Shown: in pieces, positions 12,314-18,349 of the stretch
Layout of the letters: each line of letters begins with the position of its first letter
Numbering within the stretch: the first letter of the stretch is position 1
Source: Candidatus Jordarchaeia archaeon
GTDB taxonomy: Archaea; Asgardarchaeota; Jordiarchaeia; Jordiarchaeales; Jordiarchaeaceae
DNA: 21,979 nt
Reading direction: 5' to 3'
NCBI GenBank assembly: GCA_029856435.1
Contig: JAHQXB010000023.1
Coordinates: forward strand, 1-21,979
Program-made: the position numbers and the translations under genes
Notes under the pieces: generated by a model
The model's database searches: none
Told to the model about the DNA's origin: nothing
The model's input: the letters and a program-made list of their open reading frames with translations, nothing else

Positions 12314-13756
12314 TTGAGTTCGATAATTGAGCAGCTTCACCCTCTCTACCATGCCAGAACAACAGTTATGATTGGGCTGTCAAAGAGACTTATGAGTGTT
12401 GGTAGCATTATCGCCCAAAATATAATTGACGGAGGCTACACTGGAAAACTTTATGCCGTGAATCCCCATTCAGAAAAGGTCTACCATAATATAAAGGCTT
12501 ACCCCAAATTGGGGGAAATACCTGAAGAGGTTGATTTAGCTGTTATAGTGACGCCTGCACAATTTGTGCCTGAAGTAATGCAGGATTGCGTCGACAATAA
12601 TGTTAAGACATGTATCCTAATCACCGCGGGATTCTCTGAAGTGAGGACACCCGAAGGAAAAAAACTGGAGGAAGAGACAGTTAGAATAGCTAGAAGGGGC
12701 AAGCTGCGTTTCACGGGGGGGAACTGCAACGGAGTAAGCAGCATTTCAGTAAGTATGCACGCCCTTCTCTCCCCCATAAGGCCAAACTTTGGAAATGTGG
12801 GAATAATCACTCAAGGAGGCTCCCCAGGAGTTGCCATGATGGGCTGGACAAAAAAATACAGAATTGGAGTGAGCAGATACACAAACGCTGGAAACGAAGC
12901 GGATGTTAAGATACCTGAGCTACTTGAATATTACACCCACGATCCCCAAACTAAAGTCATAATGATGTACCTAGAGGGAATTAAAGATGGGCGGGGATTT
13001 ATGGATTCAGCCAAAACAGCCACAAGAAAAAAACCACTACTACTCTACAAGTCGGGAACAAGTGAATTGGGCAAGAAGGCAGCTATGGCCCATGTGGGCG
13101 CTCTGGCAGGATCAAATGAAATATGTGAAGCAGTTTTCCGCCAGACGGGCATAATCCGAGCGAAAAGCATCGACCAAATGGTGGGAATAGCCGCGGCCTT
13201 CAGCACGCTGCCTCTACCTAAGGGGAGAAAAGTAGGCGTACTCACAATAGGTGGAGGATGGGGAGTAGTTACTAGCGACTATCTGGGAGAAGCAGGAATA
13301 GAGGTTCCTCCCCTCCTTGAAGAAGAAGTTCAGTACCTAGATCAGTATTTACCTCCACACTGGAGCAAGGGAAATCCCATAGACACCACTGATGGAGCCT
13401 TTGATTCTAAGGTTCTCAGTGAAATCATGGAAACTCTCCTCAAAAAAGAAAATATAGACGGCGCAATACTAATTGGACCGGGCATGAGAGAAGCCTTCGG
13501 TAAGATTCACTATCTCCCCGAAATAGGTGAGTTGGCATCTCAAATGGAGGTTCAACTAGCAAAGGAACTAGCAAAACTCCTAGACAAGTATCAGAAACCC
13601 ATAATAGCAATAAATATATACGCTCCAGAAGATAGCCCTGCAGTCGAGGAACTAAAGCAAAGAGGAATTCCGGTCTATGAAACTCCACAAGACGGCGCAG
13701 CCGCCTACGAAGCCCTAGTAAAATACCACGAGTACCAGAAAAGTAACCCTAACTAG
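12314..13756 (+). CDS. NDP-forming acyl-CoA synthetase (acetate--CoA ligase ADP-forming, ACD) alpha-type subunit
   Basis: YAVNP, VDLAVIVTPA..V..V..DC, ITAGFSE, GN(C)NG, TQGGS, GNEADV, DPQTKVIMMYLEG, KSG, AHVGALAG (phospho-His loop), GGGWG, NPIDTT; no ATP-grasp beta part in this ORF. TTG start with GGAGG upstream. Confidence 0.92.
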   Translation: MSSIIEQLHPLYHARTTVMIGLSKRLMSVGSIIAQNIIDGGYTGKLYAVNPHSEKVYHNIKAYPKLGEIPEEVDLAVIVTPAQFVPEVMQDCVDNNVKTCILITAGFSEVRTPEGKKLEEETVRIARRGKLRFTGGNCNGVSSISVSMHALLSPIRPNFGNVGIITQGGSPGVAMMGWTKKYRIGVSRYTNAGNEADVKIPELLEYYTHDPQTKVIMMYLEGIKDGRGFMDSAKTATRKKPLLLYKSGTSELGKKAAMAHVGALAGSNEICEAVFRQTGIIRAKSIDQMVGIAAAFSTLPLPKGRKVGVLTIGGGWGVVTSDYLGEAGIEVPPLLEEEVQYLDQYLPPHWSKGNPIDTTDGAFDSKVLSEIMETLLKKENIDGAILIGPGMREAFGKIHYLPEIGELASQMEVQLAKELAKLLDKYQKPIIAINIYAPEDSPAVEELKQRGIPVYETPQDGAAAYEALVKYHEYQKSNPN

Positions 13757-14450
13757 AATAATCGGAACTCTGAGGAGCGGGATATACCCTTGAATACCTG
13801 TCTAGATAAACCATTTCTTCCAACTCCTTTCGCGGAGTTTTGGGCGGAGTTCTAGCGGGGTAGCCGAGAGCAATTATGGAAACCAGCCTAATGCCCTCAG
13901 GAATTTCGAGAATTTTTTTAATCTTTTCCTCAGCAAACATGAATCCCGCAGTCCAGCAGGCCGCCAATCCCTTTGAAACCGCGGACAATAAAAGGTTTTC
14001 AACAGCAGCACCCACACTTAAAATGAACCAGATGGAAATAATTTCCCTATACCTGTCGTACTTTCCCCCAAAGGGTTCAAAGAGAGCTTTCGGATCCCTC
14101 ATACACACCGCTACCCACACTGGAGCGCTAACAAGAGGATAGTATCCCGCACCCTTAATAAGCGCCTGCACATTAACCTGAAAACCCACCGCTCCACTCA
14201 CCATTGGCACCAAAAAATCTTGCACAAACCCACTTAACTCCTCGTCTTCAATACCCGCCTTAAGGGCCTCAATAATCTGACTTTTAACACTTGGGTCCCT
14301 AATTACGATAAACTCCCAAGGCTGAGCATTCTCAGCCGAAGGCGCCTTCCTAGCCATATCCAAGAGTTCAAAAATATCCTTGTCAGAAACACTATCCTCT
14401 TTAAACTTCCTGATACTCTGCCTAGCTTCAATGGCCTCAAACAAATCCAT
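13749..14450 (-). CDS. Nitroreductase-family flavoprotein
   Basis: MDLFEAIEARQSIRKF, ARKAPSAENAQPWEFIVIRD, GAAVENLLLSAVSKGLAACW, LEIPEG..LVSIIALGYP..P....RK.LEE; convergent 8-bp overlap with the ACD gene. Confidence 0.92.
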   Translation of the reverse strand: MDLFEAIEARQSIRKFKEDSVSDKDIFELLDMARKAPSAENAQPWEFIVIRDPSVKSQIIEALKAGIEDEELSGFVQDFLVPMVSGAVGFQVNVQALIKGAGYYPLVSAPVWVAVCMRDPKALFEPFGGKYDRYREIISIWFILSVGAAVENLLLSAVSKGLAACWTAGFMFAEEKIKKILEIPEGIRLVSIIALGYPARTPPKTPRKELEEMVYLDRYSRVYPAPQSSDYSS

Positions 14451-14659
14451 TTTAATGTCCTCCCAAAAAAGTCTCAAACTGTTTCTCAGCGGTACATTCT
14501 AAGAGCATAAATAACCATTTTTCTGATCAGCATCTAAACTTAACGATGCTAACTCAAGCCACCATCAGACTAGAGTGAGTTTAAGTTGCACCCATTTTGC
14601 AGAATTAGGAATAAAAGGGAGATTATTTTTTAGGTGAACCATTAACCCCATATATAGCT

Positions 14660-16957: not shown

Positions 16958-16993
16958 AAAACAAAAATTGAAAATAATTGTGAGGTAATAAAT

Positions 16994-18349
16994 ATGAAAG
17001 CTGAAGAGAGAGGAAAATATTGGAACCCAATAGTTGAAACCATGCCCAGAAAAGAAATTGAAGCACTCCAAACAAAGAGACTCATGCAAGAAGTAAGACA
17101 CGCCTATTATAACACTCCCTACTACAAAAAAAGCTTCACTGAAGCAGGAATCACACCCGAAGACATAAAAACCATACACGACGTAAACAAAATACCCATA
17201 CTCTACAAAGACCAACTAAGAGAATGGCGCGCAAAAACCGGAGACCCATTCGGAGGAGTACTTGCCATAGAACTAAACGAAAAAGTACTAACCATAAACG
17301 CCTCAACCGGAACCACAGGAATACCCAGCATATTCGCCTACACCTGGAACGACAGACAAGTAGCCACAGAACAAGAAACCCGAATGAAATGGATGAGAGG
17401 CTACCGACCAGGCGACCTAGTATACATGACAGGATTCCGATGGCACGGATACGTAGTACAAGCATACTCCGGAGCAGACCAAATAGGAGTACAATGCATC
17501 CTCGACTGCGGATACCCCCTACCCTTCCTAGCCCAAAAACACGTAATAACAATGAAAAACCTAAAACCAGACATCTACGCCGGACCCACACTAACACTAT
17601 ACGCTATAATAGAAGCCACAAAAACAATGAAAGAAGACCCCAACCAAATCTTCAAAACATGCAAATCACTTGAGATTGGGTACGGAGACGTGGTCACACG
17701 GGCGGTTAAGAGACGTATTGAGGCTGAGACTGGTTTTGATCCTGAGAAGATTTTTGATTGGGGTGGTGTTGCCGACCCCTTGTGGTACTATGGTGATTGT
17801 GAGTATCATGTGGGTAACCACTCGTGTGATGATTTGTTCTACACCAATATTTGTGATTTTGAGAGTCACGAGCCGGTGGCGGAGGGTGAGCGTGGAGAAA
17901 TTGTTATTACTAACTTGTTTGCTGAGGCTACGCCGATGTTGAGGTGGGGCAGTGAGGACACGGGTTTTCAGAGTTTGGAGAGGTGTTCTTGTGGTCGAAC
18001 CTATTCTCGGACGACTATTCTGGGCAGGGAGGCTTTCGCTGCGAACATTAAGGGTAAGATGACTTTTCCGTCGGAGATTGAGAACGCGTTGGGTGATATT
18101 CCCGGGTTTACGGAGTACTTCACTGTTCTTAAGTACAAGAAGGGGCCCATGGATACTCTGAAGATTAAGTTGGCTGTGGATGCAACCAAAATCAAGGATC
18201 GGGAAGACTTCGTTAAGCGGGTTAAGGATGCTTTGAGGGAGAAGATGGGTGTAGATTCCGAGGTTGAGATTGTGGAGAAGGTTTCGGATTTGCCCTTCGT
18301 GGGGCACAAGGTTATCAAACTTTTGGATTTAACCAAGGAAGCCAAGTAG
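16994..18349 (+). CDS. Phenylacetate-CoA ligase-family adenylate-forming enzyme, full length
   Basis: ASTGTTG P-loop, DWGGVAD, CEYHVGNH and CSCGRT (Zn-site-like), GEIVITNL.AEATPMLRW.SED, LGR hinge, FPSEIE, C-terminal GHK.IKLLDL. Confidence 0.92.
   Translation: MKAEERGKYWNPIVETMPRKEIEALQTKRLMQEVRHAYYNTPYYKKSFTEAGITPEDIKTIHDVNKIPILYKDQLREWRAKTGDPFGGVLAIELNEKVLTINASTGTTGIPSIFAYTWNDRQVATEQETRMKWMRGYRPGDLVYMTGFRWHGYVVQAYSGADQIGVQCILDCGYPLPFLAQKHVITMKNLKPDIYAGPTLTLYAIIEATKTMKEDPNQIFKTCKSLEIGYGDVVTRAVKRRIEAETGFDPEKIFDWGGVADPLWYYGDCEYHVGNHSCDDLFYTNICDFESHEPVAEGERGEIVITNLFAEATPMLRWGSEDTGFQSLERCSCGRTYSRTTILGREAFAANIKGKMTFPSEIENALGDIPGFTEYFTVLKYKKGPMDTLKIKLAVDATKIKDREDFVKRVKDALREKMGVDSEVEIVEKVSDLPFVGHKVIKLLDLTKEAK

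What the first reader, a model, noticed from the sequence alone, without database searches (positions are those of the whole stretch)
13400..17670. About 4-kb A+C-rich plus-strand domain that ignores gene orientation
Hand counts of plus-strand A+C: 40/60 at 14101-14160 and 43/60 at 14161-14220 (minus-strand nitroreductase), 36/60 at 15121-15180 (minus-strand CCL), 45/60 at 17581-17640 (plus-strand PaaK). Genes on opposite strands therefore use opposite codon endings, so this is a property of the DNA strand, not translational selection. Across the window the skew seems to jump abruptly from AC to GT (about 9150, 17670) and drift back gradually, a saw-tooth like replication-skew N-domains but at kilobase scale. 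Inference: closely spaced start points of a bidirectional strand-asymmetric process (replication restart, repair, deamination) or a chromatin-related code. Boundaries are approximate.
Basis: partly seen in the sequence, partly recalled or inferred. Interest (0 to 1): 0.7.

Follow-up and report, generated by a model that had tools for sequence, protein, structure and literature searches.

The report
Strand-skew cusp flipping inside PaaK gene
In this Asgard archaeon, kilobase stretches of DNA use almost only A/C on one strand at every freely variable position and then flip within a few bases to G/T, always in the same polarity. This is a real, conserved, still-maintained footprint of an unidentified one-strand DNA process, and the closest published parallel is the bacterial "GRINS" skews.

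Summary
All four hand counts are exact. Plus-strand A+C is 0.62 over 13400-17670, which puts it in the top 0.24% of this genome's windows of that size. It flips at about 17669, inside the intact PaaK gene 16994-18349: third codon positions go from 88-98% A/C to 18-28% A/C.

Three other assemblies of related species reproduce the profile bin by bin, so it is not an assembly artefact. Genome-wide, 42 of the 43 sharpest flips run AC->GT. Their average profile is a cusp that decays over 2-4 kb, with G+C unchanged.

The bias has these properties:
- It is equal in both gene orientations.
- It extends into spacers.
- It spares presumed highly expressed genes.
- It is not tied to repeats.
- It is still being held: transitions between species are 3-4 times rarer in the domain than in neighbouring genes.

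PaaK paralogs only 64% identical flip at the same codon.

My best reading (about 45%) is a strand-asymmetric transition pressure that starts at fixed points and runs outward, probably one-strand resynthesis with G·T-type errors. The enzyme and the site determinant are unknown.

GRINS (Nivina 2021) is the closest published kind, but its repeat criterion fails here. This scan has already noted the same pattern elsewhere in this genome and in other archaea.

The parts
13350..17669 (+). A+C-rich (amino-skewed) plus-strand domain. It is gradual on the left and strongest next to the switch point.
   Evidence: 300-bp A+C is 0.55-0.69 throughout, except 0.51-0.53 at 14401-14850. Over 13400-17670 it is 0.621, the top 0.24% of the genome's windows of this size. 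G001, G003 and G004 reproduce it.
15300..17669 (+). Core of the domain, close to saturation at silent sites.
   Evidence: A+C is 0.658. AC3 is 0.84 in PaaK1 and 0.88-0.98 in codons ~50-200 of PaaK2. The spacer 15506-15886 has G of only 0.07-0.12.
17655..17685 (.). Switch point S, where AC flips to GT, at codon ~225 of PaaK2 just before the conserved GYGD motif.
   Evidence: The change point is at 17669, with delta skew 0.62 at W=500. The sequence is shown. The flip lies at the same codon within about 5 codons in G003 and in 63-66% identical paralogs.
17670..18350 (+). G+T-rich flank: the C-terminal half of PaaK2.
   Evidence: A+C is 0.382 and AC3 is 0.18-0.28.
19416..21300 (+). Continuation of the G+T-rich flank after an insertion. 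It is strongest at 20400-21300 and drifts back to neutral by ~21500.
   Evidence: A+C is 0.317 at 20400-21300. The values match G001, G003 and G004. In G003 the GT flank is continuous.
18375..19415 (.). About 1 kb present here but absent from the G003 ortholog. It holds a MITE-like repeat (18410-18625) and a second dispersed repeat (about 18900-19235), and it interrupts the GT flank.
   Evidence: Alignment gap against L001. The repeats have 16-38 BLAST matches in G000 and many more in G001, G003 and G004.
12314..13756 (+). ADP-forming acyl-CoA synthetase-like gene (CoA-binding and Succ_CoA_lig domains), at the weak left margin of the domain.
   Evidence: Pfam PF13607, PF13380 and PF02629. Plus-sense AC3 is 0.59.
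13749..14477 (-). Nitroreductase gene. Its coding strand is G/T-rich at silent sites.
   Evidence: Pfam PF00881. Plus-sense AC3 is 0.70.
14660..15505 (-). Citrate-synthase C-terminal-domain (citryl-CoA lyase-like) gene.
   Evidence: Pfam PF00285. Plus-sense AC3 is 0.67.
15887..16957 (+). Short PaaK-like gene (356 aa, no C-terminal domain), entirely A/C-skewed.
   Evidence: AC3 is 0.84, with T only 0.05 at third positions. No Pfam match. The equivalent short genes at other PaaK pairs match PaaK2 at 29-34% identity.
16994..18349 (+). Phenylacetate-CoA ligase-like gene (PaaK2, 451 aa). It is intact and is split by the switch point.
   Evidence: Pfam PF14535. 95% amino-acid identity to the G003 ortholog. 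AC3 profile.
8700..9150 (+). Short A+C-rich patch that ends in a smaller AC->GT step at the start of the HAD-hydrolase gene 9152-9694.
   Evidence: A+C is 0.676, falling to 0.42. In ORF 8601-8963 the bias is mainly at first codon positions (0.74), so part of it is amino-acid composition.

Best explanation
The 4-kb domain is the left arm of one of more than 100 cusp-shaped strand-skew features in this genome.

At a fixed point, here ~17669 inside PaaK2, the polarity flips. On both sides, the strand that runs 5'->3' away from the point is enriched in G and T and its partner in A and C. The effect fades over 2-4 kb.

I read this as a local, strand-asymmetric transition pressure: A->G and C->T on the outward 5'->3' strand. 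It would come from a DNA transaction that starts again and again at the same points and travels outward for a variable kilobase distance.

The version I favour is one-strand resynthesis with uncorrected G·T-type mispairs, so that the new strand gains G and T. Examples would be gap filling after a break or nick, or short-range restart synthesis.

Shown:
- The polarity, the cusp shape and the limitation to transitions.
- Constant G+C across the flip.
- Independence from gene orientation.
- Conservation across species and paralogs.
- That the bias is currently maintained.

Inferred:
- That it is mutational and not a fixation bias.
- That DNA synthesis, and not strand exposure, is the cause.
- What marks the sites.
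For: Polarity and shape:
- Sharp flips are AC->GT in 42 of 43 cases (34 of 36 at W=300). This polarity survives reverse-complementing, so it is a physical property.
- The mean profile of the 42 flips is a symmetric cusp. G+T is 0.34 just left and 0.64 just right of the flip, about 0.45 and 0.55 at 2-3 kb, and about 0.5 beyond 4 kb.
- GC skew and TA skew flip together and decay together, while G+C stays at 0.42-0.43.

A DNA-level effect:
- At four-fold sites read on the GT strand, the composition is A .086, C .073, G .366, T .475 for genes on the AC strand. It is A .101, C .111, G .285, T .503 for genes on the GT strand.
- Relative to baseline, the fold-change is therefore the same in both orientations, and A is depleted at least as much as C.
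- Spacers track the AC3 of their flanks, with r=0.55 in all four orientation classes.
- The r-protein cluster, thermosome, aEF1a and aEF2 genes are neutral.

The bias is maintained:
- Between G000 and G003, four-fold transitions are 0.04-0.06 in the AC domain against 0.12-0.20 in adjacent neutral genes. Transversions are alike, 0.06 against 0.07-0.09.
- Paralogs at 64% amino-acid identity have nearly randomised their A-versus-C choice but still keep G/T at about 8% or less.

The bias is heritable:
- The profile is the same in G001, G003 and G004.
- The flip is at the same codon in three PaaK subfamilies.
- Seven or eight of 14 ABC-ATPase Walker-B sites flip at the motif.

Lineage intensity: the standard deviation of 300-bp A+C is 0.070 here, against 0.045-0.047 in three other Asgard lineages.
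Against: - No enzyme, break site or sequence determinant was found. There is no shared motif, no inverted repeat and no link to the tRNA-type mini-introns of this genome.
- The repair genes NucS/EndoMS and EndoV are present here as in most less-skewed relatives, so gene content gives no lead.
- A mutation bias of 20-30 fold confined to a few kilobases would be very costly. A fixation bias of similar strength, from biased gene conversion or selection, gives the same equilibrium and cannot be separated from it without polymorphism data.
- A parsimony count of lineage-specific changes shows net flux out of the skew: A>G 190 against G>A 61 in AC domains. I attribute this to the known bias of parsimony when the rare state is short-lived, but I did not fit a model to prove that.
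- A recently inserted MITE copy in the GT flank shows no drift (6 against 4 transitions), and the family-wide test was underpowered.
- It is unexplained why flips sit at the same codon in diverged paralogs and often at conserved protein motifs.
Confidence: 0.45

Rival explanations
1. One strand is exposed as single-stranded DNA and deaminated. Divergent R-loops, D-loops or transcription bubbles start at the switch point and leave the outward 5'->3' strand unpaired. C->U and A->hypoxanthine then make that strand G+T-rich, as on the heavy strand of animal mitochondrial DNA. A feedback loop (G-rich RNA favours R-loops, and R-loops increase G) could keep domains stable and inheritable by paralogs.
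For: - It predicts the same polarity and cusp as observed.
- Both transitions occur on one strand, as in mtDNA.
- The skew looks stronger in the G000/G001/G003/G004 group than in the closed genome G005, with SD 0.070 against 0.055-0.060. One member, G003, is titled QZM_A3, which I take to be a hot-spring MAG. G005 may be the wetland-soil genome of 10.1101/2023.11.21.568159, but I did not verify that identity.
- Self-reinforcement would explain why paralogs share walls without sharing a motif.
Against: - G+C does not fall in the domains, and A is depleted at least as much as C. Hydrolytic deamination is dominated by C->U and should lower G+C.
- Presumed highly transcribed genes are neutral.
- PaaK1 and the first half of PaaK2 would need strong antisense transcription from inside the gene, and no AT-rich promoter-like sequence is visible at the switch.
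- There is no sharp neighbour context of the kind enzymatic deaminases leave.
Confidence: 0.2
2. Strand-asymmetric biased gene conversion. The switch points are recombination hot spots. Heteroduplex on each side has a fixed strand polarity, and unequal handling of G·T and A·C mismatches fixes G/T on one strand. This acts like selection and needs no raised mutation rate.
For: - Kilobase cusps centred on points look like conversion-tract distributions.
- The implied strength (equilibrium odds of 10-30) is in the range known for GC-biased conversion at eukaryotic hot spots (my own knowledge).
- The low transition divergence inside domains fits a fixation bias.
- The GRINS paper links such skews to gene conversion (PMC8256042).
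Against: - With the published preference of archaeal EndoMS/NucS for G·T over A·C mismatches (my own knowledge), simple break-repair models predict the opposite polarity, GT|AC. This is reasoning, not a test.
- NucS is present both here and in most less-skewed relatives searched.
- The skew is not enriched in multi-copy genes.
- No such strand-asymmetric conversion bias is documented.
Confidence: 0.15
3. Selection on nucleic-acid composition. A/C-only or G/U-only stretches cannot fold on themselves and contain no palindromes, and the pattern may be kept for RNA or DNA behaviour. Alternatively it is a GRINS-type recoding with a role in gene-family evolution.
For: - The pattern is kept at the same codon in paralogs that have long diverged and in orthologs.
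- The bias is actively held.
- GRINS authors propose a functional role.
Against: - The same distortion applies to sense and antisense genes and to spacers, so no single RNA property is being selected.
- Domains run across unrelated genes on both strands.
- Presumed highly expressed genes lack it.
- It is not enriched in gene families.
- The universal AC->GT polarity and the distance decay have no obvious selective reason.
Confidence: 0.12
4. Artefact, or a passive relic. Possible forms are an assembly chimera, strand-specific sequencing damage, a recent inversion or transfer from a strongly skewed replicon, or a past hypermutation burst that is now simply decaying.
For: - The parsimony flux looks like decay.
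- In three relatives the PaaK1/PaaK2-N stretch falls at contig ends.
Against: - Four assemblies give the same profile bin by bin.
- The ORFs are intact, with 95% protein identity across the flip.
- The bias is concentrated at silent positions.
- An inversion or chimera cannot flip polarity inside a colinear gene.
- Transition divergence in the domain is 3-4 times below the neutral expectation for decay.
- Paralogs at 64% identity still hold the skew.
Confidence: 0.04

Closest known systems
[quoted passage not shown]
   Same: - Intense GC and TA skews of the same sign (G+T against C+A).
- Strongest at third codon positions.
- They change abruptly within a functional gene.
- Both signs occur on one strand.
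- Amino-acid usage is shifted too.
- The mechanism is unknown; the authors suggest error-prone copying through G/T tautomer mispairs.
   Different: - GRINS are defined as duplicated regions (>80% DNA identity within a cluster) and are tied to gene conversion in bacterial PKS genes. Here the best paralog is 70.8% identical, and the skew is not enriched in multi-copy genes.
- Archaea are not mentioned in the paper.
- In the sections I read and searched I found no report of a fixed AC->GT polarity, a distance-decaying cusp, extension across neighbouring genes on both strands, or conservation of the flip codon.
Strand asymmetry of animal mitochondrial DNA (G+T-rich heavy strand)
   Same: Both A->G and C->T accumulate on one strand, near saturation at silent sites, with a gradient along the DNA (my own knowledge; PMC3269015 listed).
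   Different: In mtDNA there is one domain per genome, set by strand-displacement replication. Here there are more than 100 two-sided cusps of 2-4 kb in a 3.5-Mb chromosome, with G+C unchanged.
Replication skew N-domains of mammalian genomes and bacterial ori/ter skew
   Same: There is an upward jump of (G+T)-(A+C) skew at a point, with the same polarity as at an origin, and a gradual return.
   Different: - Those domains span the whole distance between origins (about 1 Mb, or a replichore) and are weak.
- Here the effect dies out within 2-4 kb of the jump, is 10-fold stronger, and jumps lie inside genes.
- A bidirectional single-origin-type cumulative GC skew is reported for a Freyarchaeia genome (10.1101/2023.11.21.568159).
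Transcription-associated strand asymmetry and R-loop-linked GC skew
   Same: The asymmetry is kilobase-scale and involves the same two transitions on one strand.
   Different: That asymmetry follows gene orientation and expression. Here it is the same in both orientations, flips inside a gene, and is absent from presumed highly expressed genes.

Membership tests
GRINS (Nivina et al. 2021) | Region longer than 500 bp with mean absolute GC skew and TA skew above 0.15 (150-nt windows, 30-nt step) | tested here: met
   For 13400-17670, mean |GC| is 0.25 and mean |TA| is 0.28. For 17670-18350 they are 0.36 and 0.14.
GRINS (Nivina et al. 2021) | GC and TA skews correlated (G with T, C with A) | tested here: inconclusive
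   - Both skews are negative in the AC arm and both positive in the GT arm, and they flip together.
- Across 13400-18350, r is +0.28. Within the AC arm alone, at 150 nt, r is -0.18.
- Genome-wide r is 0.03, because ordinary coding bias works the other way.
GRINS (Nivina et al. 2021) | Duplicated: more than 80% DNA identity to another region of the same cluster or genome | tested here: not met
   The best match elsewhere in G000 is 70.8% over 2259 bp (C112); others are 64-73%. The share of genes with an extreme chunk is 0.154 without paralogs and 0.142-0.174 with paralogs.
GRINS (Nivina et al. 2021) | Skew strongest at third codon positions of a functional gene, with shifted amino-acid usage | tested here: met
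   AC3 is up to 0.98. First-position A+C also shifts, from 0.52-0.60 to 0.26-0.54 across the flip.
Replication-associated strand asymmetry (origin/terminus) | Skew keeps one sign over the whole replicated stretch between origin and terminus | tested here: not met
   The mean profile returns to about 0.5 within 4 kb of the flip, while flips of |delta|>=0.4 are about 30 kb apart.
Replication-associated strand asymmetry (origin/terminus) | Jump sites are replication origins (ORB repeats, cdc6/orc neighbourhood, marker-frequency peaks) | not testable with these tools
   The flip lies inside PaaK2, and I saw no repeat or motif at the flips. No replication data are available.
Transcription-associated strand asymmetry | Sign follows the transcribed strand of each gene | tested here: not met
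   Opposite-strand genes share the plus-strand sign. The fold-distortion is the same in both orientations. The sign flips inside one ORF.
Translational codon-usage selection | Bias strongest in highly expressed genes and confined to coding sequence | tested here: not met
   The r-protein, thermosome and elongation-factor genes have AC3 of 0.38-0.58. Spacers share the skew.
Inversion or horizontally acquired island | Borders coincide with rearrangement or insertion breakpoints and are absent from relatives | tested here: not met
   The region is colinear with G001, G003 and G004 across the flip and shows the same profile there.

The most novel reading that the evidence does not exclude
The switch points are fixed initiation sites of a short-range, bidirectional DNA-synthesis or strand-displacement process in an Asgard archaeon. 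Candidates are break-, nick-, R-loop- or recombination-primed synthesis, independent of the main origin. The sites are spaced about every 30 kb and are heritable enough to be copied along with duplicated genes. The skew cusps would then be a sequence-only map of these sites, and the same process would underlie bacterial GRINS.
Probability: 0.25. Interest if true: 0.9.

Novelty: new variant of a known kind. Interest (0 to 1): 0.72.

Why it matters
If the cusps mark where a strand-asymmetric DNA transaction starts, they would map an unknown repair, restart or recombination process from sequence alone. That map would come from uncultured archaea close to the eukaryotic stem, where no experiments are yet possible.

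Practical consequences:
- Codon usage and some amino-acid usage in these genomes depend on position relative to switch points. This can mislead gene callers, because long spurious ORFs appear in skewed DNA.
- The short PaaK gene in the domain, 15887-16957, gets no Pfam match, and its skewed composition may contribute to that.
- It may also affect binning, codon-based expression predictions and phylogenies.

The fixed polarity, the constant G+C and the evidence of maintenance are new constraints on the unexplained GRINS phenomenon, and they extend it beyond bacteria and beyond repeats.

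Tried and rejected
1. Assembly artefact or chimera: rejected. G001, G003 and G004 show the same profile, and the protein is intact across the flip.

2. Gene-orientation or translational cause: rejected.

3. Common DNA motif at the flips: none seen in 60 aligned junctions. Inverted repeats centred on the flips score 8.65 against 8.41 of 14 in side-wise shuffles, and none reaches 12/14.

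4. Link to the genome's tRNA-type mini-introns (a lead from earlier notes): the AC domain ends at the ahcY intron, but ppsA and tyrS show no flip. Dropped.

5. Drift of MITE-like repeat copies toward the local skew, as a test of neutral DNA: 16 copies, almost all in neutral flanks, Spearman -0.12. Uninformative.

6. GRINS-style association with repeats: not found.

7. Parsimony flux on 3-4-taxon alignments suggested decay. I do not trust it under strong bias. The pairwise four-fold analysis and the paralog analysis point to maintenance.

8. The negative correlation of AC3 between opposite-strand neighbours (-0.29) is not specific. Small samples of less-skewed Asgard genomes give -0.22 to -0.42, probably from replichore-scale skew. 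I do not rely on it.

9. Presence or absence of NucS/EndoMS and EndoV across 41 relatives: present in this genus and in most others. No lead.

10. tRNA and Rfam scans of the window: nothing found.

11. Literature: four further searches found no description of kilobase AC/GT cusps in archaea, and the two skew-related papers I opened from them do not describe them. A search for GRINS found only PKS/NRPS papers.

Full report
**What the window is.** The window is a whole 21,979-bp contig (C174) of a 3.54-Mb, 181-contig MAG. Related records are titled Candidatus Jordarchaeia. Earlier notes of this scan and one paper place the group in Freyarchaeia/Jordarchaeia, Asgard archaea.
- nitroreductase, 13749-14477 (-);
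- a citrate-synthase C-terminal-domain (CCL-like) gene, 14660-15505 (-);
- a PaaK-type ligase, 16994-18349 (+).

A shorter PaaK-like gene precedes the ligase at 15887-16957 (+). An ADP-forming acyl-CoA synthetase-like gene lies at 12314-13756 (+).

**Check of the observation.**
- All four hand counts are exact.
- Plus-strand A+C is 0.621 over 13400-17670. Only 0.24% of the genome's own 4271-bp windows are as skewed.
- The bias is concentrated at third codon positions and has the same plus-strand sign in genes on either strand. Plus-sense AC3 is 0.70 and 0.67 in the two minus-strand genes, 0.84 in PaaK1, and 0.88-0.98 in codons ~50-200 of PaaK2.
- At about 17669 the polarity flips within about 15 bp, inside the intact PaaK2 reading frame. 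AC3 then falls to 0.18-0.28.
- The left border is gradual.
- The 'jump at ~9150' is a smaller step of the same polarity at a gene start. Part of the A+C excess to its left is amino-acid composition.

**Not an artefact, and conserved.** An independent Jordarchaeia MAG (L001, 95% protein identity) has the same domain and the same intragenic flip. I mapped 300-bp bins of 12800-21800 onto G001, G003 and G004 (88-92% nucleotide identity). The values are nearly identical bin by bin, for example 0.70/0.71 at 16400 and 0.26/0.24/0.26 at 20600.

In the window the G+T flank to the right of the flip is interrupted by about 1 kb (18375-19415) that G003 lacks. This stretch holds dispersed repeats. The flank then resumes, with A+C of 0.317 at 20400-21300.

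**Genome-wide picture.**
- The standard deviation of A+C in 300-bp windows is 0.070. The binomial value is 0.029, and three other Asgard lineages give 0.045-0.047. The closed genome of the same genus gives 0.055-0.060.
- The standard deviation of AC3 in 50-codon chunks is 0.151, against 0.088-0.101 in those controls.
- Sharp flips are almost all AC->GT: 42 of 43 at W=500 and |delta|>=0.5, 34 of 36 at W=300 and >=0.6, and 115 of 154 at the looser 0.4 threshold.
- This polarity is unchanged by reverse-complementing. It means that on both sides of a flip the strand running 5'->3' away from it is G+T-rich.
- The mean profile of the 42 strongest flips is a symmetric cusp. G+T is 0.34 just left and 0.64 just right, about 0.45 and 0.55 at 2-3 kb, and about 0.5 beyond 4 kb.
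- GC skew and TA skew flip and decay together, while G+C stays at 0.42-0.43.
- Across all genes, coding-sense AC3 rises from 0.46 in the first decile to 0.61 in the last. Many flips accordingly fall at gene ends and are somewhat enriched between convergent genes. About a third are intragenic, at all relative positions.

**A DNA-level effect, not translation or transcription.**
- At four-fold sites in skewed stretches, read on the G+T-rich strand, genes on the AC strand give A .086, C .073, G .366, T .475. Genes on the GT strand give A .101, C .111, G .285, T .503.
- Relative to the baseline codon usage, this is the same distortion in both orientations: A about x0.3, C about x0.4, G about x1.5, T about x1.7. 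Neighbour context has only a mild effect.
- Spacer composition follows the plus-sense AC3 of the flanking genes, with r=0.55 and slope 0.41 in all four orientation classes.
- The rpl14 cluster, three thermosome genes, aEF1a and aEF2 are compositionally neutral, with AC3 of 0.38-0.58.
- I do not rely on the negative AC3 correlation between opposite-strand neighbours (-0.29). Small samples of less-skewed relatives give similar values.

**Maintained, not fading.**
- Between G000 and G003, four-fold transitions are 0.12-0.20 in the adjacent neutral genes but 0.04-0.06 in PaaK1 and the first half of PaaK2. Transversions are alike, at 0.07-0.09 against 0.06.
- From the neutral genes I expect about 19 A>G differences at the A sites of the domain under free decay, by my own arithmetic from the counts. 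Four A/G differences were seen.
- PaaK paralogs only 62-65% identical in protein have almost randomised their A-versus-C choice at shared four-fold sites: 0.53-0.66 identical against 0.41-0.45 expected. G/T is still about 8% or less there.
- A parsimony count of lineage-specific changes shows the opposite: A>G 190 against G>A 61 in AC domains. When the rare state reverts quickly, ancestral G sites are seldom kept in three taxa, so parsimony over-counts common-to-rare changes. I therefore give that count little weight, but a model-based test is still needed.

**Heritable flip positions.**
- G000 has 13 PaaK-like matches.
- Three subfamilies (C174, C112 and C69; 63-66% identical) and their orthologs in G001, G003 and G004 flip at the same codon, just before a conserved GYGD motif.
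- A 41% identical subfamily shows a weak flip at the same place.
- A 35% identical subfamily flips near codon 140.
- The ortholog in another genus (G009) does not flip, and the one in G005 does so only partly.
- Seven or eight of the 14 ABC-ATPase Walker-B sites in the genome flip exactly at DEPTxGLD, including the second nucleotide-binding domain of a UvrA-like gene.
- Other flips lie in conserved motifs of small GTPases, cdc48 and purD-like genes.
- I found no shared DNA motif, no centred inverted repeat, no consistent link to the genome's mini-introns, and no enrichment of skew in multi-copy genes.

**Mechanism.** Any explanation has to fit these facts:
- transitions only, with A->G and C->T on the same strand and in balance, so that G+C does not move;
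- a start at fixed points, with outward decay over kilobases;
- the same polarity everywhere;
- indifference to genes;
- persistence over long times;
- copying along with duplicated genes.

These fit a process that begins at the switch point and runs outward on both sides. I favour repeated one-strand resynthesis with G·T-type mispairs, in which the new strand gains G and T. After a break or paired nicks at S, the strands refilled on either side are exactly the ones that run 5'->3' away from S. Variable tract lengths would give the cusp. This is inference. It agrees with the tautomer and error-prone-copying idea of the GRINS authors.

Exposure and deamination of the outward strand in R-loops or D-loops gives the same polarity. 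It fits less well with constant G+C, with A being depleted at least as much as C, and with neutral highly expressed genes.

A strand-asymmetric conversion bias, or selection on composition, cannot be excluded without polymorphism data.

**Comparison with what is known.** The closest published kind is GRINS (PMC8256042). GRINS are intense, same-sign GC and TA skews at third codon positions that change abruptly inside functional bacterial PKS genes, and their mechanism is unknown.

The window meets the length and skew-strength criteria but fails the defining repeat criterion: the best paralog is 70.8% identical against the required >80%. Archaea are not mentioned in that paper, and in the sections I read and searched I found no report of a fixed polarity, a cusp shape or evidence of maintenance. 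A search for GRINS found only PKS/NRPS papers. Four further literature searches found no description of such cusps in archaea, and the two skew-related papers I opened do not describe them.

The scan itself has seen the pattern before, on other pieces of this genome and in Bathyarchaeia, other archaea and a CPR bacterium.

**Verdict.** I class the feature as a new variant of a known but unexplained kind (GRINS-like skew): archaeal, genome-wide, not dependent on repeats, and with a fixed polarity and cusp geometry. These properties point to fixed start sites of a strand-asymmetric DNA process.

Noticed in passing
window 18410-18625: MITE-like repeat of about 187 bp with terminal inverted repeats (TTTAAACC...GGTTTAAA). 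There are 16 copies in G000 and many in G001, G003 and G004. This copy is absent from the G003 ortholog, so it was inserted recently.
   Followed up: partly
window 18900-19235: A second dispersed repeat, with 14-38 partial BLAST matches in G000. Only this copy is full-length at my cut-off. It lies in the ORF-free stretch 18349-20679 and has a G+T-rich first half.
   Followed up: partly
window 15887-18349; also G000 C112:5833-8226 and C126:4438-6787: Recurrent tandem pair: a short PaaK-like gene (about 340-357 aa, no C-terminal domain) directly upstream of a full-length PaaK. G000 has 13 PaaK-like matches in total. The short gene in the window has no Pfam hit.
   Followed up: partly
G000 C145:53074-54396 and C126:4438-5766 (outside the window): PaaK paralogs with a single in-frame stop: TAG in C145 and TAA in C126. 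The TAA paralogs in G001 and G003 (36-37% identical to the query, like C126) also carry one. These may be recoding (the lineage is reported to recode stop codons, PMC9723677) or a mini-intron. Not examined.
   Followed up: no
window 16354-16971, 17224-17673 (+) and 16018-16449, 17151-17597 (-): Long spurious ORFs (143-205 aa) overlap the real genes in other frames inside the skewed DNA, presumably because such DNA has few stop codons. This is a trap for gene callers.
   Followed up: no
G001, G003 and G004 orthologous loci: In three related MAGs the contigs end inside or next to the strongly skewed PaaK1/PaaK2-N stretch. Only G003:C36 spans it. Extreme skew or the paralogy may hamper assembly.
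   Followed up: no
window 5978-7006: About 1 kb without any ORF of 100 aa or more, C-rich on the plus strand (C up to 0.37 at 6301-6600). No tRNA or Rfam match.
   Followed up: no
G000 C81:~48233 (ahcY, outside the window): The A+C-rich domain covering the first part of ahcY ends at the position of its in-frame-stop mini-intron. Two other intron-bearing genes show no such coincidence.
   Followed up: partly
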